NCBI GenBank assembly: GCA_951406725.2 | Contig: OX597819.1 | Coordinates: 56,482,001 to 56,546,000 of the forward strand | DNA length: 64,000 bases | Direction: 5' to 3' | Source of the DNA: Octopus vulgaris | Lineage: Eukaryota | Part shown: in pieces, positions 3,585 through 64,000 of the stretch | Layout: each line of letters begins with the position of its first letter | How positions within the stretch are numbered: position 1 is the first letter of the stretch | Translations under genes and position numbers: made by a program | The notes under the pieces: model-generated | What the model was told of the DNA's origin: nothing | Database searches by the model: none | The model's input: only the letters and a program-made list of their open reading frames with translations

Positions 3585-3810
3585 CGAGCTAGCAGAAACG
3601 TTAACACGCCGGGCGAAATGCGTAACCGTATTTCGTCTGCCGTTGCGTTCTGAGTTCAAATTCCGCCGAGGTCGACTTTGCCTTTCATTCATTCGGGGTC
3701 GATAAATTAAGTACCAGTTACGCACTGGAGTCGATGTAATCGACTTAATCCGTTTGTCTATCCTTGTTTATCCCCTCTGTGTTTAGCCCCTTGTGGGTAG
3801 TAAAGAAATA
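3585..3810 (+). mobile_element. SINE family A, near full length
   Basis: GAGCTAGCAGAAACGTTAACACGCCGGGCG...GAGTTCAAATTCCGCCGAGGTCGACTTTGCC...CCCCTTGTGGGTAGTAAAGAAATA. Confidence 0.9.
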
Positions 3811-4010
3811 TATAAATATATTCAATCAAGGACTATCCAGTTGCCTACGCGCAGCTAAACACATTCACATATTACGATCCTGACCATACATAACCAATGT
3901 AAATATAACACCCGCAACACTCATTAATCCAACTGAACTTAAGGAACAGTATTCAAACAACTTGTATTTGGACATCTAATTATAGAATCTATCTATCAAT
4001 CTCTCTATCC

Positions 4011-22619: not shown

Positions 22620-23020
22620 ATATTCTTTTCTATACTAGGAAGAATGCCCAAAATTTTGAGGGAGTGGGGAGCCAGTCAATTAGATCGACCCCAGTATGCA
22701 ACTGCCACTTAATTTATCGACCCCGAAAGGATGAAAGGCAAAGTTGATCTCAGCGGAATTTGAACTCAAAACGTAAACGGACGAAATACCTATTTCTTTG
22801 TTACCCACAAGGGGCTAAACGCAGAGAGGACAAACAAGGACAGGCAAACGGATTGAGTCGATTATATCGACCCCAGTGCATAACAGGTAATTAGTTAATC
22901 GACCCCGAAAAGATGAAAGGCAAAGTCGACCTCGGCAGAATTTGAACTCAGAACGTAGAGGCAAACGAAATAATGCTAAGCATTTCGCCAGGCGGGCTAA
23001 CGATTCTGCCAGCTCGCCAC
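22620..23020 (-). mobile_element. SINE family A tandem dimer
   Basis: Same organisation as 2233-2572 and 58632-59041. Confidence 0.88.
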
Positions 23021-26985: not shown

Positions 26986-27654
26986 ACAGACACACATATA
27001 CACATATATGTGTATAATCCGTTACAATGCCTTACGGTTTGACCTTACTAACTTAACACATTCTTAACAGTTTAACAAATATCTATTCATACACTTTACT
27101 GTATCAGCTACTACATTCAATATCACTAAGCTGCTACTTATATCAATAATAAACACACATATATGAAATATAATGTAGAAGGTACAATATTGAAATATAC
27201 TGTGCATTATATCAACTAATACACACATTGAAAACTCTGTTCATACTTTATTTCCAGTTAGCCGTTATAAGCATTATATTCGCTCTTACCCATCCTCAAC
27301 TTATCTATTCCCAAATCAATATCACCTGTTTCTCCTTAATATATCGACTAATTGAACTGATACATAATATAATATATGCAGCGAACTATATAAATTAACT
27401 TCTGTGGTGTATATGAAGAAATATAAATACGCATTAGTAAACATTGAACTCGTTGCTTACTGGATCAATTTATTTGTCCTCTGTTGCCTCAACTAATAAT
27501 AATAATTACGCCTCTAGGAAGTTTCCAGTTTTGGAGAATGATTCGTTAATGAAATTTATATTTAGTCATCCCACAAATAATGCGGTTTTTTCAATTGCAT
27601 GAACTAAAAGTCGGAGGGGATAAACTATCGGAATCAATTAGTTATAGAAACAGG

Positions 27655-28812
27655 TAGGAAGGCTGCGTTGTCAGAGCGATGGCACGTTCACTAAGCGGAG
27701 AGGAAACGAAAGCGTCGCGATGGGCCCACGTGGTGTAGGCGAAAAGTGGCAATAAAGCCACAATTCGGTCTTTGGTTGACCAGAGCGGATGAGTGGTGTT
27801 CGAGCCGAAAAAAATGTGTGCGGCTTTACAGGGGCACTTTGCTCGACTGTTCGGGACGAATGGTAGGACGGATAACAGGGCAGACTTCGGTGTCTACATA
27901 GATGGCCTGCCATGACTCTCCGCGAGCAAGGTGGAGTGCTGCGAAAGGTCGATAACAGCCGAGGAGATACAGGAACCGATGAAGAGTTGACGAGAAGTAG
28001 ATCGCCGGGTTTGGATAGTCTGCCCTACAAGCTTTATACTTCGATGCCAGACTTGTTTGCAGGCCTCTTAGCAAAGGTCTACTGCAACTGACACTGCTGA
28101 GAAAGGACTACTCAATGCAGAGTTGAAATTTTGGTCAAGCTGTCAGGCACGAAGTTGGTGCTTGTCGTGGACAAGCTGGTTGACGAGGCGCAAACGAGTG
28201 CCATCCCAATCAGGACTATTCACGATAACCTCCATCGTATGCGCTACATCATAGAGAGGGTGGGTAACGAAGCTAGCATATGTGGGGCTCTGATTAATTT
28301 AGATTAATCCAAAACCTTTGATAGGGTCGACCATCAATACTTGGCAGCTGTCCTGAAAGCAGCCGGTTTCACTCCAGTTTTCCACTTTTGGATCACTGCT
28401 TTATACAGCGGCATCTGCTCGGTTGTTCGGGTAAATGGTCACCTGTCGGAGCCATTCAGCATCTTGCGTTCGCTCCGTCAAGGGTGCCCTCTTTCCTCCT
28501 TTCTGTATGTACTGACTCTTGAGCCATTACTGCGGAATTTGAAGGCTTTGAGGGATGTCCCGCGTGATCTAGGATGTAGGAGAAGTGTGTCTGCTTACGG
28601 TGATGATGTCACCGTCATAGTGTCGAGCCACAAGCATATAGACCTGATTGGCGAAACACTACAAGAATATAAAGTTGTGACAGGAGCAAAAATGAACGCA
28701 GAAATGTCAGTGGGCTTGCAACTAGGCATCTGGAGAGGCAAGTCCATGCCATCCAACAGCGTCGTGGGGCACTGGACAGAGGGTCTCGTTAAATTGCTCG
28801 GAATCTGGTGCA
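27655..28812 (+). mobile_element. Tx1/L1-clade LINE ORF2 (RT) fragment, disrupted
   Basis: AQTSAIPIRTIHDNL, ALINLD*SKTFDRVDHQYL, VNGHLSEPFSILRSLRQGCPLS and VSAYGDDVTVIV. Confidence 0.92.
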
Positions 28813-28905
28813 GCAGCAGCAACAACGGCAGTAGAAACCAACCCCGTCACCGCCAGCAACAGTGACGTCGCCTTCAGCTGTAGCTAGGTCACCAGCAACA
28901 CCACG

Positions 28906-28937
<32 letters not shown>

Positions 28938-30755
28938 AAACACCAGTCGAAGTGCTAACAACAACAACTACTGTAGAAGTAGCAGCAGGAACAAATGAAC
29001 TCCAGCAGCAAAGCGAAGGGTCAGCGAAAATCCCATTTCCTGACCAAACAACTCGGACTGTTCGAGTGCTGAGGTCGAGAAGGGGAAATGGCAAACAGTT
29101 CCCCCCTAGAAAAAAGACAGTAGAAGAAAAGAGGGGGAGGTGCAAACAGCAGGAACTTCGCAACAGCAGCAACAGGCAAACACAGCAACCACCACCAACA
29201 ATAACAACACTACCACCAGCACTACCACCTCAAATGCCGACACAGACTGCACAAACACCACCAGCCTCACAATCATCGACACCGACAATACACCACATGT
29301 TACATAGATTAGAGAAAACACAGACAACACAATGAAAGACTTTGTCTTCCCAACACACAACACACCACCAGCACCACCACAACACAATGAAAGACTTTGT
29401 CTTCCCAACACACAACACACCACCAGCACCACCACAACACAATGAAAGACTTTGTCTTCCCAACACACAACACACCACCAGCACCACCACAACACAATGA
29501 AAGACTTTGTATTCCCAACACACAACACACCACCAGCACCACCACAACACAATGAAAGACTTTGTCTTCCCAACACACAATACACCACCAGCACCACCAC
29601 AACACAATGAAAGACTTTGTATTCCCAACACACAACACACCACCAGCACCACCACAACACAATGAAAGACTTTGTCTTCCCAACACACAACACACCACCA
29701 GCACCACCACAACACAATGAAAGACTTTGTCTTCCCAACACACAACACACCACCAGCACCACCACAACACAATGAAAGACTTTGTCTTCCCAACACACAA
29801 TACACCACCAGCACCACCACAACACAATGAAAGACTTTGTCTTCCCAACACACAACACACCACCAGCACCACCACAACACAATGAAAGACTTTGTCTTCC
29901 CAACACACAATACACCACCAGCACCACCACAAAACAATGAAAGACTTTGTCTTCCCAACACACAACACACCACCAGCACCACCACAACACAATGAAAGAC
30001 TTTGTCTTCCCAACACACAATACACCACCAGCACCACCACAACACAATGAAAGACTTTGTCTTCCCAACACACAATACACCACCAGCACCACCACAACAC
30101 AATGAAAGACTTTGTATTCCCAACACACAATACACCACCAGCACCACCACAACACAATGAAAGACTTTGTCTTCCCAACACACAATACACCACCAGCACC
30201 ACCACAACACAATGAAAGACTTTGTATTCCCAACACACAACACACCACCAGCACCACCACAACACAATGAAAGACTTTGTATTCCCAACACACAACACAC
30301 CACCAGCACCACCACAACACAATGAAAGACTTTGTCTTCCCAACACACAACACACCACCAGCACCACCACAACACATACCAATTTTAAAACTAAAACAGG
30401 ACATGTTTAAGACATTAAAAATAAATTTTCCAAATGCTGGTGTCACATTTAAAAATACATTCTTTAAGAGACTATAAAGACCTCGTGGAAACGCCCGCAG
30501 CAAAAACCAGGGTGGCACCCCTGCCAGACAACTATGGTAACTAGAGCTATTCTTCGGATGGTGGTGGTGGGGGGGGGGGGGTTCCACGAGGTCATTAACG
30601 CGCCTCCCCTATTGGGAGTATTAATTTGTTTCATTTTGTATTGTTATTTATATTGTTTACAAGTGGAAAACCTTTTGTATCGTTCTGTTTTTGTCCTTTA
30701 TGTTGTTTGTCATTTAATGTTTTTGTATGTGAGCCCTTGTGGCGAATAAAATAAA
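28813..30755 (+). mobile_element. 3' part of a probable ORF1-only Tx1-type element containing a 55-bp array
   Basis: Pro/Thr/Gln-rich ORF with VEKGKWQTVPPRKK across a frameshift. No endonuclease or RT sequence follows before a T-rich 3' UTR ending GAGCCCTTGTGGCGAATAAAATAAA. Confidence 0.5.
29325..30376. repeat. 55-bp minisatellite, 19 copies
   Basis: Unit CAACACAATGAAAGACTTTGT(C/A)TTCCCAACACACAA(C/T)ACACCACCAGCACCACCA; period 55 (AATGA at 29331, 29386, 29441 and onward). Confidence 0.98.
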
Positions 30756-57995: not shown

Positions 57996-59300
57996 TAGGG
58001 TGTCATATAAACATATTGAATTACTATAAAATCATTGTTTATGAAATTCCATTTCATTCTAAAATTTAACAGAATCTATAGACAGAATTAATTTTTTAAT
58101 GAGCATCATTTTTATCAAATTGATGACCGTTCCCATTAAGATACTAGTGATAACTCGAAGTAATGGAATCACAAACATCAAGAATCAACTATTTCAATAT
58201 GTGTGTATATTCTCGTTTAATGGCCATCTTCAATTCGTGGACTGTTGCCAGTTTTGTAACGTTAATGTTATGCTTTGTGTAACTCCATTATAATAAGCTG
58301 TACCATGCGGCAACTCTTGTTAAATTAATATGATGTTTCTTCGCCATATACAGGATTTCTTCCCAGTATGTGCAGTTATAGCAGTTAATAAAACCATTTA
58401 ATTTAATTACCTATAAAAGTATTGTCGGAACGTGTGTATCTTCTATACGTCTTGTCAAGTGCCACTCGCAAATCATTTACATTTCGGTGTATATCAGGTC
58501 GTTGATAACTATTCCTAGAATGTAACATTGTCAATGAAAGCGCTTCAGAAGTCAATGGATGCTTGTTTTCCACATTTGCTTTCCAAGCGAATTTTCTTGA
58601 AAGCTGTCAATAGATTTCTTTTACACATTCTTATTTCTTTATTGCTCATAAAGGGGCTAAATATAGAGTGAACAAACAAGGACAGACAAAGGCATTAAAT
58701 CGATTACATCGACCCCAGTGTGCAACTTGTAGTTAATTTATCGACCCCGAAAGGATGAAAGGCAAAGTCGACCTCGGCGGAATTTGAACTCAGAACGTAA
58801 CGGCAGAAGAAATACCTATTTCTTTACTACCCACAAGGGGCTAAACACAGAGGAGACAAACAAGGAGAGACAGACGGATTGAGTCGATTATATCGACCCC
58901 AGTGCGTAACTGGTACTTAATTTATCGACACCGAAAGGATGAAAGGCAAAGTCGACCTCAGCGAAATTTGAACTCAGAACGTAACGGCAGACGAAATACC
59001 GCAAAGCATTTCGCTCGGCGTGCTGACGTTTCTGCCAGCTCGTATTCTTGTTTAGTGAGCCTTGTCGATGTCCGCGGTCTAACTGGAGTTTTTTTTTATC
59101 TTTCCATGGATATTCTGAAAATTTCCATTTGCTTCATATTTATCTTCACTTCGAGTGGTGTATATCGCGTATGTGAATCGTTTGGGAACTTCCTTATAAT
59201 CACGACTTCGACAGCGTCCTCAAACTTTCAGCGACTCTTCTGGAAAAGTTTCCTTCGTTCAACGGTTAATCTGACTTTCTTCCTTAATTATTTCTAAAGG
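57996..59300 (-). mobile_element. Decayed Tc1/mariner-superfamily transposon interrupted by a SINE dimer
   Basis: N-terminus RLTVERRKL..KFEDAVEV..DKYEANG..VRPRTST and C-terminus TKLATVHELKMAIKRE..VCDSI..NGHQF; TAGGGTGTC TIR-like end. Confidence 0.6.
58632..59041 (-). mobile_element. SINE family A tandem dimer
   Basis: Two cores; ATTCTT(A/G)TTT on both flanks as a probable TSD. Confidence 0.9.
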
Positions 59301-60039: not shown

Positions 60040-60041
<2 letters not shown>

Positions 60042-60078
60042 TGCAAGTGTGGCTGTGTGGAAAGTAGCTCCCTAACCA
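60040..60078 (+). mobile_element. Interrupted SINE family B head (insertion target)
   Basis: GGTGCAAGTGTGGCTGTGTGGAAAGTAGCTCCCTAACCA aligns with the first ~40 nt of the 57413 copy and then stops. Confidence 0.75.
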
Positions 60079-60119
60079 CTGAACTGTTCAGACGTGTTTT
60101 TTTGCTGCTCCAGATGCCA

Positions 60120-60510
60120 CGTGTTTCAGCGTGAATTGTTGAACTTTTGACTCGACTAAAGGTAGGAATTTTGTATTCTTGTGGGCGAAGTGAAGTTTTA
60201 TTACTTGCATTAATGTTTTTTAGCATTAAATATTTTTTAGCAAATAATAAGGCTCCACTTTGCTCCAGATATAATTTTTCTGCCTGTGTCGAGCGGAAAG
60301 AAAATTGTATTGATGTCGCGTTGTTTCAACGTGAAATATTGAACGTTCGAATCGACTAAAGGTGGGAATTTTGTATTTTTGCGAGCGGAGTGAAGTTTTA
60401 TTACTTGCATGAATGTTTTTTTAGCATTTAATATTTTTAGCAGATAATAAGGCTCCACTTTGCTCCGGATATAATTTTTCTGCCTGTGTCGAGTGAAAAG
60501 AAATTGTATT
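60120..60510 (+). repeat. Two ~200-bp 5' UTR monomers
   Basis: CGACTAAAGGT at 60153 and 60353; AATAATAAGGCTCCACTTTGCTCC block duplicated. Confidence 0.92.
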
Positions 60511-60836
60511 TTTGAAGCGGCATAGTCCGTCTGAAAAAATTATTGTTGAAATTGTCGTTGTGTTGTCCACGGATTACCAAGGATTATTTACCAAGGGTTT
60601 TACCAACAGTGCATTTGGCCTGGATTACAATTTTTGGCCGAAGAAGTGGAAAAAAAAAAAAAAAGAACTGAATTCCTTTGTCTGAATTGAACTCTCTTTC
60701 TCTGTCTACTATTTATTTGTAAAAACTTTTTTGAACTGCCATTTTCAATTTTATTTCTTCCCTTCTGTTGCATTTTTTCATTCTCCTTTCTGTGGCTAAT
60801 TTTAGTTTATCATTTTGAACTGTTGTATTTTACGTT

Positions 60837-62089
60837 ATGGCACAGGCAAAGAAATTCAATGTGTGGGAGTTAACACCTCCCAAAAAATATTTGCACGAAC
60901 TCGAGGAAAGAACCGTGGTGCTGAGGACATATTCAAAGTCACTCGACACCATAATGGTTTTTCCGAGAGACACCATTGTGAACGAGCTGGCAGACTATAT
61001 GCCAGCCGTTAAACATATTCAACGGGGAGTCAAATACGCAACGGTATGGTTGCTATTTGACTCCGCTGAAGCAGCTTGCAAATTTGCAAGCCAGCCCATT
61101 GAGGGCGATGAGATTCTGTTTCTCCCCAGTTACAAGGGGGAAAAATTGTTACGTTTGTGGGTCTGTGGCCTGCCGCCCGGCTTTGAGCCCGAGTGGGTGG
61201 AAGATTCCATCCGCCGGGGTCTGAGCGGTGGTGGCGCCAAGGTCCTGAATGTGAAAATGCAGCCTGCGGCTAACTGGGAAGCAGGAAAGGCTACTTTGAC
61301 TCTGTGGACCCAGCAGCCAAGAGTCTGGTTTTGCCGGACTTCCTGAAGATGGCCGGGTCCAAGTATCCGGTGATGCTGAGGGACGCGCCCCCAAGTGTCA
61401 CCTGTGTTCGGAGCCTGGACATATTAAGAAGAAGTGTCCCGGGGGCCGTGGTGCCGCCCCGGAACATGAAAAGGAAAAGGTGCCCGCCGTCCCCTCATTG
61501 GAGGGGGAGACGTGAAAGTCGTGGAGGAGGTTGCCTCCACGAAAAGAAAGAGGCTGGCGAGCAACAACGGTTGCCCACCAAAGAACGCTCAGGGGGCGGA
61601 GGGGGATAGCATTCCCCCGTGTCTGGTGACGGAGTCCCCTGGGTTAGCAGTCTCCCCCAAAAGAAGGAGGAGAAAAAGGAGAGGTCGGACGTCTGACGTT
61701 TCTGTGTCTCCGACGGAACCGCGGGTGGGATGTGTGCCACCCGCGGACAAGGCTCCGTCAGTAGGAAGTGTGCTACTGACGGATCAGTGTGAGGTCCCTT
61801 CCTGTGAAGAGGAGTTATTTCTCCTCCTTTACCACAAGGGAGGGAAGGTGGAAAAGTTTTTAAATGGCTTGGGTGACCGAGAACGCAAGGACACGGTCGG
61901 CTCAAGGAGTCCGTTATGGCCTCCGCGGGTAGCTGCGGAGGTAGTAACGGAAGATATTTGACAAGGGTCGCAGAGACCTTTCAGAGGAAAGATTTTACTT
62001 TTCTCTTTGCAGGCCTCGACTTGTCGTCGCAGAGTTGTCTGCAGGCGGCAAGACAATTTGCTTCGGGGACCTGACGGGGAGAATTGTTA
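60837..62089 (+). pseudogene. Gag-like ORF1 with CCHC zinc knuckle, several frameshifts
   Basis: RRM-like N-terminus (RTVVLRTY..VWLLFDSAEAA..LWVCGLPP), KCHLCSEPGHIKKKC, and a basic KRRRRKRR stretch. Confidence 0.85.
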
Positions 62090-62374
62090 AACACTTTTTG
62101 AACATTTTGAACATTTTTAAACATGTTGAAGAGGAGGTTTATTACCTCCTCTGAAAAAATGTAATTTGAACATTCTGAACATTTTTGAACATTTACTAAA
62201 TGTATTCATTGAACATTGTCTTAGAGAAGCGGGGGTCGGCGGGCGCTTTCGTCTTCTCCCATCACCATCTTCATTCCATCACCATCATTCATTAATGTCT
62301 ATGTCCAGCCCGTAGCTACTATCTGTGTACTGCCCTTGTGGCAAATTAAATGAAATAAAGTAGCTTGCTAACCA

Positions 62375-64000
62375 GACATGCGCAGTTAGTCGGTTGCTTC
62401 TTGTTGAGCTCGAGCGGACGTGAGTAACAAGCTCTGTCCAACTAAAGAAAAAAGACCAAAAACGGAAAGTTGTCGAGGTAAGTGATTTTGTTTATTGTGA
62501 GTTGGGCATAATTTATTGCGTGCCAATTATTATTTCAGTAGGTTGTGTCCAACTCTGAGACAATTTCGCCTTCGCTGGGCGGCTGCCGTTTTTGTGTTCA
62601 TTGAAAAAAAAGAAAAAACAGTGGAGGGGCGTATACTCAGGATTCAATACAGTTACTGTTAAAATTACCGTTGGCAGTAACCAGTGCTGTGTTTGAGTTT
62701 GCTGAATTTATTCCCTTGTCAGAGTACTTCGCAAGAAAAGTATAAAAATAAGCCACTATTGGATTACCTTTCGGACCCATTTTTGTGGAGGTTGTGTTGC
62801 AGTTGCGGCGTTCCAGGTTCAACCCAGGCCGGGAGTACCGCAGAATATTTTTGCTGTGTTTTTTCTGTTTATTAACTTTCTTTTGAACTTCATTTACCCC
62901 CCCCCTTTTGTTTTTTCTTTATTGCGACTTTCCGTTAATTTCTTCCCTTCTGTTGTGCTTTCTCCTTTTTGTTTTTTCAAAAATCTATCAAATTTATTTA
63001 GACTTTTGAACTTTTTTCTTCCTGCTTTTGAGTCTAATTTGAATATATTTTTTAAAAAACATGGCAATGAAAAATAACAAAGTTTTGGAGTGGGAAATCA
63101 TACCACCCAAAAAGTGGTTGAAGGACCGTGAAGATAGGACGGTGGTGTTGAGAACCTACTCCAAGGCACTTGACACCATCGCCCTATTCGAAAAGACGGC
63201 AATTGAGGAGGAGTTGGAGGAGTATTTGCCAACAATTAAATTCATTTCCAGGGGTGTCAAATATGGAACGGTGTGGTTGCTGTTTGACACACCTGAAGAG
63301 GCTTGCAAATTTGCTAGCGAACCCTTGGAGGGTAAGGAAATCTTATTCCTGCCCACTTACAAAAAAAGAAATTAATGAAAGCTTGGATCTGCGGACTGCC
63401 ACCCGACATAGAACCCGAGTGGATAGAGGAGACTATCCGCCGGGGTCTGGGTGACAGCGAAACTAAGCTCCTCAATGTAAAAGTTCTTCCTGCGGCTGCT
63501 TGGGTTGGCTCGAAAGCAGTTTTGACCCTGTGGACCCAATCAGCCAATCTGGTTTTTCCAGATTTTTTGAAAATGGCCGGGTGCAGGTACCCGGTGATGC
63601 TTGAGGGTCGCCCCCCTAAGTGTCATCGGTGCTTGGAGTCCGGCCACATAAAGAAGAACTGTCCTCGGGAACAAAATAGGATCCCGGAACAGTTAAGTAA
63701 AACCCCTCTAGAAGAGGGAACGATAACGGCCGAGAAAGCAGAGGATTCCTCAAGCAGAGGCCGAAAGAGGAAGGTGAGCAACAATGGGTGCTCACCAAAG
63801 GATAATAGGGATGAGGAGAGGAGGGCGAATCTTCCAGCCACGGAGGAGACGCACCCTCCCTCAGTTGAAAAGGGAAAAAAAAAGAAAAAGAGGAAGAAAA
63901 ACGGGACGTTGCCGGCTGTCAGTGTGGCACCGGAATGTCGCGGAACTACGTCGGTTGGGGTTGTGCCACCGACAAGAGAAGGAATACCGTTGGCGGAAAC
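62375..64000 (+). mobile_element. Second related Tx1/L1-type element, truncated by window end
   Basis: Begins immediately after the duplicated target. Its 5' UTR differs from element 1, starting CATGCGCAGTTAGTC...CGGACGTG (Inr/DPE-like). ORF1 is homologous to element 1. Confidence 0.82.
63061..64000 (+). CDS. ORF1 zinc-knuckle nucleic-acid-binding protein; one frameshift in the A-run near 63361-63372
   Basis: MAMKNNKVLEWEIIPPKK..RTVVLRTYSK..RGVKYGTVWLLFD, then in another frame AWICGLPPDIEPEW..LEGRPPKCHRCLESGHIKKNC, open to the window end. Confidence 0.8.

What the first reader, a model, noticed from the sequence alone, without database searches (positions are those of the whole stretch)
60040..64000. 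Zinc-knuckle retroelements stacked at one site inside a SINE head; the complete one has ORF1 only
Seen: a family B SINE stops after AAAGTAGCTCCCTAACCA (60061-78). A 2.28-kb element follows (UTR, ORF1, tail, no endonuclease or RT), then the target recurs as AAAGTAGCTTGCTAACCA (62357-74, 16/18 match), and a second, diverged relative starts immediately. Known: Tx1-clade LINEs are often sequence-specific for multicopy targets such as tRNA, snRNA and other transposons, and HAL1 elements encode only ORF1. Inference: a SINE-targeting, site-specific non-autonomous family that re-uses its duplicated target to build tandem arrays, in effect a parasite of a parasite.
Basis: partly seen in the sequence, partly recalled or inferred. 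Interest (0 to 1): 0.8.

Follow-up and report, generated by a model that had tools for sequence, protein, structure and literature searches.

The report
ORF1-only retroelements stacked in SINE head
In an octopus-type genome, two related jumping genes sit head-to-tail at one spot inside another, very common short repeat; the complete one carries only an RNA-packaging gene and so must borrow a partner's enzymes, a new combination of two habits already known separately.

Summary
A SINE head (60040-60078) stops after an 18-nt motif. A 2,278-bp element follows, the motif recurs (16/18), and a sister element begins. Element 1 holds only an RRM-RRM-CCHC ORF1 and a 280-nt tail, with no endonuclease or RT. 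This copy's ORF1 has four one-base gaps, which public contigs lack. Both families are multicopy, and the ORF1-to-tail junction recurs in other contigs in long-tail and short-tail forms, so a unique deletion is unlikely. Both motif copies share two changes absent from four other SINE copies, as a target-site duplication predicts. Two displayed contigs from other copies also start right after SINE letters. Genome-wide flank enrichment, the rest of element 2 and the autonomous partner could not be read. One contig leaves element 1's end without aligning to the target, and Tx1 membership is only inferred. Best reading: a non-autonomous ORF1-only LINE (like HAL1, HeT-A or Ag-Sponge), moved in trans by a sequence-specific, probably Tx1-type LINE that targets this SINE head. 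It is a new variant that combines known features.

The parts
60040..60078 (+). 5' head of the family B SINE, truncated; preceded by a (TA)n run
   Evidence: 31/39 to the consensus of four other window heads, 6/17 beyond; (TA)n seen
60061..60078 (+). Upstream copy of the 18-nt target (target-site duplication)
   Evidence: 4 differences from the SINE consensus, 2 of them shared with the internal copy
60079..62356 (+). Element 1: ORF1-only non-LTR retroelement, 2,278 bp
   Evidence: the 3' limit 62356 is also where contig X2 record 20 stops aligning
60079..60836 (+). Element 1 5' UTR with a 199-bp tandem duplication (60113-60311 / 60312-60510, 88.6%)
   Evidence: contigs with a 201-nt skip here exist in X1 and X18
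60837..62076 (+). Element 1 ORF1 (about 410 codons; RRM-RRM-CCHC-basic disordered tail), broken in this copy by four one-base gaps near 61313, 61376, 61512 and 61956
   Evidence: frames against P0001, pieces, contigs with one extra base at each site (table 4), fold
61396..61437 (+). CCHC zinc knuckle of element 1 ORF1
   Evidence: translation; core profile hit E 2.9e-6
62077..62356 (+). Element 1 3' tail, 280 nt, no poly(A); local hairpin 62130-62152
   Evidence: whole tail z -0.34, not more structured than shuffles
62332..62351 (+). 3' terminal motif shared with a second ORF1-type element (30733-52) and, more loosely, with family A SINE tails
   Evidence: 2 matches, 0.01 expected
62357..62374 (+). 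Internal copy of the 18-nt target between the two elements
   Evidence: flanks unlike the SINE (2/21 upstream, 4/17 downstream)
62375..64000 (+). Element 2: sister family, cut by the window end; own 5' UTR 62375-63060
63061..64000 (+). Element 2 ORF1 (open at the window end; one-base gap near 63360; CCHC at 63621-63662)
   Evidence: (zf-CCHC E 0.003, below the curated cut-off)

Best explanation
Element 1 is a copy of a multicopy, non-autonomous non-LTR retrotransposon family that keeps only ORF1 (a type I RNA-binding protein: two RRMs and one CCHC knuckle) and a short 3' tail. Shown: the anatomy, the multicopy state, the recurrence of the ORF1-tail junction, and purifying selection on ORF1 between the two families. 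Inferred: the element's RNA, coated by its own ORF1p, is reverse-transcribed in trans by the ORF2p of an autonomous LINE (probably Tx1 clade) that recognises the shared 3' end. That ORF2p's endonuclease cuts the SINE head just behind the A-box-like stretch with an 18-nt stagger, giving an 18-nt duplication. The duplicated target is used again by a sister family (element 2, autonomous or not unknown), giving head-target-element 1-target-element 2. The order of the two insertions cannot be told. Separate odds: multicopy ORF1-only family about 0.9, sequence-specific insertion at this SINE site about 0.75, Tx1 partner about 0.65.
For: No EN or RT in element 1 and only 280 nt after the ORF1 stop. 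Contigs of two RNA-guessed runs from different studies cross the ORF1 stop into the tail with 4-7 other letters in about 780 (X1 record 5, X2 record 19). Two DNA runs show a second form that skips 62086-62327 and joins the ORF1 end to the last 30 nt (depth 525 and 603). Summed DNA depth is 828-28,077 over element 1 bins and 19,293-155,106 over element 2 bins in X8, against 36-87 for the thinnest listed DNA contigs (not a copy number, but multicopy). Both target copies carry A at positions 1 and 14, where 4 of 4 other window heads carry T. Displayed loose ends from other copies show SINE-consensus letters directly before element 2 (place 62358) and before an element 1 relative (place 60098); that relative and element 2 both start GACA right after ..ACCA. 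In X8, depth at 62373 (6,142) equals depth at 62411 (6,119), and single contigs with a gap at 62373 have depth 2,275 (X8) and 1,360 (X18). dN/dS is 0.20 (bootstrap 0.11-0.31, 194 codons). A second, distant ORF1-type element in the window also has a stop, about 280 nt, and the same end motif. Precedent for Tx1 families targeting other TEs and for tandem insertion around a TSD: PMC4494074. Thirteen recently active L1-Tx1 families exist in O. vulgaris (PMC13282606).
Against: The duplication is imperfect (2 adjacent mismatches). No third target copy or SINE remainder is visible, because the window ends inside element 2. Only 24 of 858 loose ends were displayed, so flank enrichment was not counted. 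X2 record 20 stops aligning at 62356 and, as I read the minus-strand coordinates, runs on for 94 letters that do not align to the target. Those letters were not shown; they could be a different site or a divergent SINE variant. The shared variants were compared with only four SINE copies and could mark a SINE subfamily. The RNA-guessed contigs could be alleles of this same locus. Type I ORF1s occur in the I, Jockey, R1, Tad1, plant L1, L2 and CR1 clades (PMC4120745), so the protein does not fix the clade. No autonomous partner was identified.
Confidence: 0.68

Rival explanations
1. The SINE head is the elements' own 5' end (a captured head, like the U1/U2 heads of Tx1-Mar, or a template-switch chimera). 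The 18-nt internal copy is then a 5'-truncated head, not a duplicated target.
For: Other copies also begin after SINE letters. The SINE remainder is not seen. One contig leaves the 3' end without aligning to the motif. Precedent for RNA-derived heads on Tx1 elements: PMC4494074.
Against: The two motif copies share two letters that differ from 4 of 4 window SINE heads. The displayed loose ends of other copies show the consensus letter at these positions (T before the motif..TACCA), so the variants look private to this locus, as a duplication predicts. Two families with unrelated 5' UTRs would each need the same head.
Confidence: 0.12
2. The elements are ORF1-only, but the preference is loose or aimed at a similar tRNA-gene sequence; the SINE is a frequent bycatch because it is so abundant.
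For: SINEs make up 11.6% of the O. vulgaris genome (PMC13282606). X2 record 20 may have another flank. A distant ORF1-type element with the same end motif sits in an ATT-rich flank, not at this site. DNA transposons that target tRNA anticodon and A-box regions are known (PMC8869645).
Against: Two different families sit at the identical nucleotide here, and two displayed contigs from other copies show the same junction. Depth inside the target matches depth inside element 2 in X8.
Confidence: 0.13
3. Element 1 is a one-off internal deletion of an autonomous LINE at this locus.
For: This copy's ORF1 is broken in four places. Element 2's coding capacity beyond 64000 is unknown.
Against: The proximal tail has high depth in two DNA runs (6,786 and 3,087 at 62035-62167). 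A second ORF1-tail form exists at depth 525-603. Contigs from two further studies carry the junction with the reading-frame bases present.
Confidence: 0.04
4. The tandem arrangement is a segmental duplication or an assembly artefact.
For: Five one-base gaps in about 2 kb of coding sequence suggest uncorrected sequence errors. No listed contig spans the whole stretch.
Against: The two elements are only 72% alike in ORF1 and have unrelated 5' UTRs. The junctions fall exactly on the motif.
Confidence: 0.03

Closest known systems
ORF1-present non-autonomous LINEs: HAL1 (from L1), HeT-A (from Jockey), Ag-Sponge (from CR1), as grouped in PMC5786205 (passages read); HAL1 also in PMC5753468 (passages read)
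   Same: 5' UTR, ORF1 only, 3' tail, no EN or RT; multicopy; depends on a partner's ORF2p (inferred here).
   Different: The ORF1 is type I with one CCHC knuckle (HAL1 derives from L1, whose ORF1 is type II; Jockey ORF1s have three knuckles). The host is an octopod. It inserts at a fixed site in a SINE head, whereas HeT-A is telomeric and no fixed target was stated for HAL1 in the passages read.
Tx1-Mar LINEs with SINEU-3 in crocodilians; Tx1L in the Tx1D transposon of Xenopus (PMC4494074, passages and part 3 of 5 read)
   Same: A target inside another transposable element; a non-autonomous passenger sharing the target; tandem insertions sandwiching a TSD of similar length (16 nt there, 18 here).
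   Different: The target here is a SINE head, not a DNA transposon. The passenger encodes ORF1p rather than being a non-coding SINE. The partner and clade were not identified here.
ORF1-only telomeric Jockey elements of Drosophila (PMC13534243, passages read)
   Same: Repeated ORF2 loss in site-restricted LINEs; ORF1-only lineages that give rise to further ORF1-only families; head-to-tail arrays.
   Different: Those attach to chromosome ends and serve the host; here the site is interstitial and there is a target duplication.

Membership tests
ORF1-present non-autonomous LINE (HAL1/HeT-A/Ag-Sponge type) | Encodes ORF1p only, no endonuclease or RT | tested here: met
   280 nt between the ORF1 stop and the end, no EN or RT hit in any forward frame
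ORF1-present non-autonomous LINE (HAL1/HeT-A/Ag-Sponge type) | Amplified as a unit (many copies with the same ORF1-to-tail junction) | tested here: met
   high depth over the proximal tail in two DNA runs, bridging contigs in two further runs, a second short-tail form; copy number not counted
ORF1-present non-autonomous LINE (HAL1/HeT-A/Ag-Sponge type) | Retrotransposition hallmark (target-site duplication) | tested here: met
   16/18 repeat with two shared variants
ORF1-present non-autonomous LINE (HAL1/HeT-A/Ag-Sponge type) | 5' and 3' parts traceable to an autonomous LINE | not testable with these tools
   no genome held; no ORF1-ORF2 fusion found
HAL1 in the strict sense | L1 type II ORF1 (coiled coil, one RRM, CTD; Transposase_22) | tested here: not met
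   the model shows two RRMs and a CCHC knuckle, which is type I by PMC4120745
Tx1 clade | RT phylogeny and APE endonuclease place the autonomous element in Tx1 | not testable with these tools
   element 1 has no ORF2; element 2 is cut at 64000; no reference Tx1 sequences on hand
Tx1 clade | ORF1 type compatible with Tx1 | tested here: inconclusive
   RRM-RRM-CCHC; Atlas lead to ZCCHC3-RBD clusters at 0.90; that such domains are typical of Tx1 ORF1 is recalled, not shown by a call; type I is shared by many clades
Target-specific LINE (criterion of PMC4494074) | More than 20% of flanks carry the same target | tested here: inconclusive
   two families at this locus plus two displayed contigs and the depth pattern support it; one contig may not; 24 of 858 loose ends shown
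HeT-A group | Jockey-type ORF1 with three CCHC knuckles, telomeric arrays | tested here: not met
   one knuckle in each element; among the 93 proteins then held, 30 had one exact CCHC pattern, 2 distant hits had several and the rest (many partial) none; the site is interstitial
tRNA-derived SINE (the target) | tRNA-like head with A and B boxes | tested here: inconclusive
   A- and B-box-like words seen by eye against recalled consensus; ARAGORN and Rfam found nothing in the window; octopus tRNA-derived SINEs known to me only through a citation

The most novel reading that the evidence does not exclude
Octopods host a long-lived guild of ORF1-only retroelements (elements 1 and 2 both lacking ORF2, plus distant lineages such as the one ending at 30755). 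They share one 3' signature with a SINE family and diversify under purifying selection. At least one lineage is strictly bound to a single nucleotide of the dominant SINE, possibly with its own ORF1p helping target choice or using the SINE's promoter. This would be an ORF1-only, site-specific hyperparasite system in a fourth LINE lineage, beside those of HAL1, HeT-A and Ag-Sponge.
Probability: 0.25. Interest if true: 0.68.

Novelty: new variant of a known kind. Interest (0 to 1): 0.45.

Why it matters
If confirmed, it adds a lineage of ORF1-only LINEs beyond the three listed in PMC5786205, and a SINE head as a landing pad for a sequence-specific LINE system. It gives a natural test of why a non-autonomous element keeps ORF1 under selection, and of whether target choice comes wholly from the borrowed ORF2p. 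The partner's endonuclease would be a new 18-nt-stagger, site-specific enzyme, of interest for targeted-integration work. For octopus genomics it means some SINE heads and 'uncharacterised CCHC proteins' in gene sets are parts of retroelement stacks. The principle itself (TE-targeting LINEs, ORF1-only passengers, stacking at a TSD) is known.

Tried and rejected
No whole genome is held, so flanks could not be counted. No RNA holder on record was listed; the RNA label of X1 and X2 is a guess, so expression is not claimed. Collection scans found nothing. DNA patterns gave 0 in metagenome contigs, 0 in genome contigs and 0 in viral contigs. Protein scans gave 78 pattern hits with 0 confirmed and 601 with 0 confirmed. 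Alignments A2 and A3 were too variable to scan with. A near-length protein search gave 0 of 29 candidates. A search for long ORF1-ORF2 fusions (1,508-4,305 aa only) gave 0 of 7,479, which is weak evidence. Of 28 proteins scanned (P0001 and 27 of the other 86 hits), none carried EN or RT domains. No Pfam ZCCHC3-RBD or Transposase_22 row appeared among the 25 of 28 families shown for the 26 alignment members. By eye, element 1's C-terminus resembled the C-terminal motif of octopod homologs, but 33 of 500 shuffles scored as well, so this was rejected. Tail structure is not above shuffles. The RT piece at 28308-28811 scores equally against R2 and L1 structures, so its clade is not fixed. Earlier-findings look-ups by place and by sequence were empty. 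Bao and Jurka 2010 is not held. Passages of PMC10351740, PMC9004415, PMC11203168, PMC3747384 and PMC8967140 gave no link between ZCCHC3-type domains and Tx1, and no octopus SINE-targeting element.
Full report
Observation. The sequence is as described. After a (TA)n run, 60040-60078 is the head of a SINE that has four other copies with heads in the window. It matches their column consensus at 31 of 39 positions, and at only 6 of the next 17. The last 18 nt recur at 62357-62374 with 2 mismatches. The scan found 4 matches at up to 3 mismatches against 0.05 expected, and the other two are SINE heads. Around the internal copy the SINE is absent (2 of 21 upstream, 4 of 17 downstream), and two probes for the SINE body found nothing in 60079-64000. 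Element 1 is therefore 2,278 bp. Element 2 starts at 62375 and runs off the window. The two are 72% alike over 593 columns of ORF1 but share almost none of their 5' UTRs, so they are sister families, not a duplication.

Host. The only full-length protein hit of the first search is an Octopus sinensis gene model, 66% identical (P0001, 1 of 646 candidates). A profile search gave 87 hits. Twenty were looked up: 11 carry octopod names (O. sinensis, O. vulgaris, O. bimaculoides, Argonauta hians), 1 has a label without a species, and 8 are unnamed. The window is thus octopod DNA (inference).

ORF1. Against P0001, element 1's ORF1 shifts frame three times. Public contigs carry one extra base near 61313, 61376, 61512 and 61956, and near 63360 for element 2 (table 4). 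Read across these gaps, ORF1 spans 60837-62076, about 410 codons. Whether the gaps are decay or sequence error is open. The AlphaFold model of P0001 (mean pLDDT 81) matches tandem-RRM proteins (121 Foldseek matches at E up to 0.001; single RRM matches, best Z 9.4 with rmsd 2.5 over 82 residues, over model residues 14-102 and 100-186). The RRMs are followed by one CCHC knuckle and a disordered basic tail. That is a type I ORF1, which occurs in many LINE clades (PMC4120745, passages). The Atlas gives a 0.90 lead to ZCCHC3-RBD clusters. Between elements 1 and 2, 194 aligned codons give dN/dS 0.20 (0.11-0.31), with 96 of 176 differences at third positions. This shows selection on ORF1 between the families, not necessarily during a non-autonomous phase.

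No ORF2, and not a one-off. Only 280 nt lie between the ORF1 stop and the end, with no EN or RT hit in three frames. No genome is held, so I laid contigs of 4 of the 24 listed runs on 60040-64000 at 85% likeness. In the two DNA-guessed runs all 30 bins are covered. X8 has summed depth 828-28,077 over element 1 and 19,293-155,106 over element 2, while the thinnest listed DNA contigs have 36-87. The tool warns that this is no copy number, but both families are clearly multicopy. The proximal tail (62035-62167) has 6,786 and 3,087. Contigs of two RNA-guessed runs from different studies bridge the ORF1 stop into the tail (61408-62193/4, 4 and 7 other letters). Both DNA runs also hold a form that skips 62086-62327, joining the ORF1 end to the last 30 nt (depth 525, 603). 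Depth rises about fourfold from 62168, with loose ends at 62211, so the distal tail is shared with further families.

Target. Both motif copies have A at positions 1 and 14, where 4 of 4 other window heads have T. This is what a duplication of one SINE copy's sequence predicts; the upstream copy has two further changes. Among the 24 loose ends shown (of 858), two lie at the element starts. One X8 contig has SINE-head letters directly before the motif and element 2. Another shows an element 1 relative starting right after ..TACCA, with the same first four letters as element 2 (table 7). In X8 the depth at 62373, inside the motif, is 6,142, and at 62411, 37 nt inside element 2, it is 6,119. In X18 the figures are 15,146 and 3,937 (tables 3, 4). 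An isolated 18-nt SINE match is probably too short to be laid, so many copies seem to join the motif to an element end (inference). Against this, X2 record 20 aligns without mismatch up to 62356 and then stops. Its 30-nt overlap with record 19 suggests that its 94 unaligned letters lie beyond the 3' end, and they did not align to the motif. This fixes the 3' boundary and shows there is no poly(A), but that copy may sit at another site or in a divergent SINE. Flank enrichment remains uncounted.

A second case in the window. At about 27650-28810 lies a degraded RT piece (RVT_1 E 4e-13; clade not fixed). It is joined to a low-complexity ORF1-type end with a 55-bp array. The last residues of that end match a C-terminal motif of four octopod ORF1 homologs (best of 2,128 six-frame pieces, E 4.5e-4; a modest hit from a four-sequence profile). 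Its stop at 30475-77 is followed by about 280 nt and the same terminal motif as element 1 (2 matches, 0.01 expected). Family A SINE tails end similarly. This suggests several ORF1-only lineages and a SINE using one 3' signature. Its flank is ATT-rich, so not all of them use the family B target.

Mechanism. Shown: an ORF1-only multicopy element between two copies of an 18-nt SINE-head sequence, with a sister family at the same nucleotide. Inferred from established LINE biology: target-primed reverse transcription by a borrowed ORF2p whose endonuclease sets the site (PMC4494074). The target duplication recreates the site, so a second insertion stacks in tandem. The partner is probably a Tx1-clade LINE, because that clade is known for TE targets (PMC4494074) and O. 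vulgaris has 13 recently active L1-Tx1 families with 421 insertions (PMC13282606, parts 1-2 of 3 read; supplement searched). This is not tested. Element 2 could itself be the partner.

Comparison and novelty. ORF1-only LINEs are known from L1 (HAL1), Jockey (HeT-A) and CR1 (Ag-Sponge) (PMC5786205, passages; PMC5753468, passages). They arise repeatedly among site-restricted telomeric elements (PMC13534243, passages). Tandem insertion of a non-autonomous passenger around a TSD inside another TE is described for SINEU-3. Eight full-text searches showed no ORF1-only, SINE-head-targeted element and nothing of the kind in octopus. However, Repbase, the O. vulgaris repeat library on Zenodo, Bao and Jurka 2010 and Kojima and Fujiwara 2004 were not visible to me (the last two are known only through citations) and may already hold such families. 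Unchecked notes of this scan report Tx1-like LINEs at SINE sites in other genomes, which suggests that SINE targets are not rare. Verdict: a real, new variant of known kinds; interest 0.45.

Noticed in passing
window 27650-30755 (+): A degraded LINE RT piece ends abruptly near 28810 and is joined to a 5'-truncated ORF1-type end with a 55-bp x19 array, a stop at 30475-77, a tail of about 280 nt and the same terminal motif as element 1. It may be a second ORF1-only lineage, and the join may be a template jump between an autonomous LINE RNA and a passenger RNA.
   Followed up: partly
window 3755-3835 (+), 22765-22845 (-), 58790-58870 (-): Family A SINE tails end in CCCTTGTGG followed by an A-rich stretch, like element 1's end, suggesting the same mobilising LINE group.
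   Followed up: partly
window 60079-60091: Element 1 begins with a 13-nt fold-back whose first 10 letters are absent from a relative's 5' end shown; possibly a 5' addition made during insertion (fold).
   Followed up: no
window 60113-60510: A 199-bp tandem duplication in element 1's 5' UTR; contigs in two runs have only one unit, so it varies between subfamilies.
   Followed up: partly
P0009 (O. sinensis gene model), residues 83-129: A stretch nearly identical to element 2's ORF1 start is fused into a gene model with an integrase domain: a likely mis-annotation of nested elements.
   Followed up: no
P0037, P0041, P0064, P0068, P0070 clusters: Distant relatives of this ORF1 type lie on unnamed ENA and JGI contigs, some over 100 kb; their neighbourhood could reveal the ORF2 clade.
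   Followed up: no
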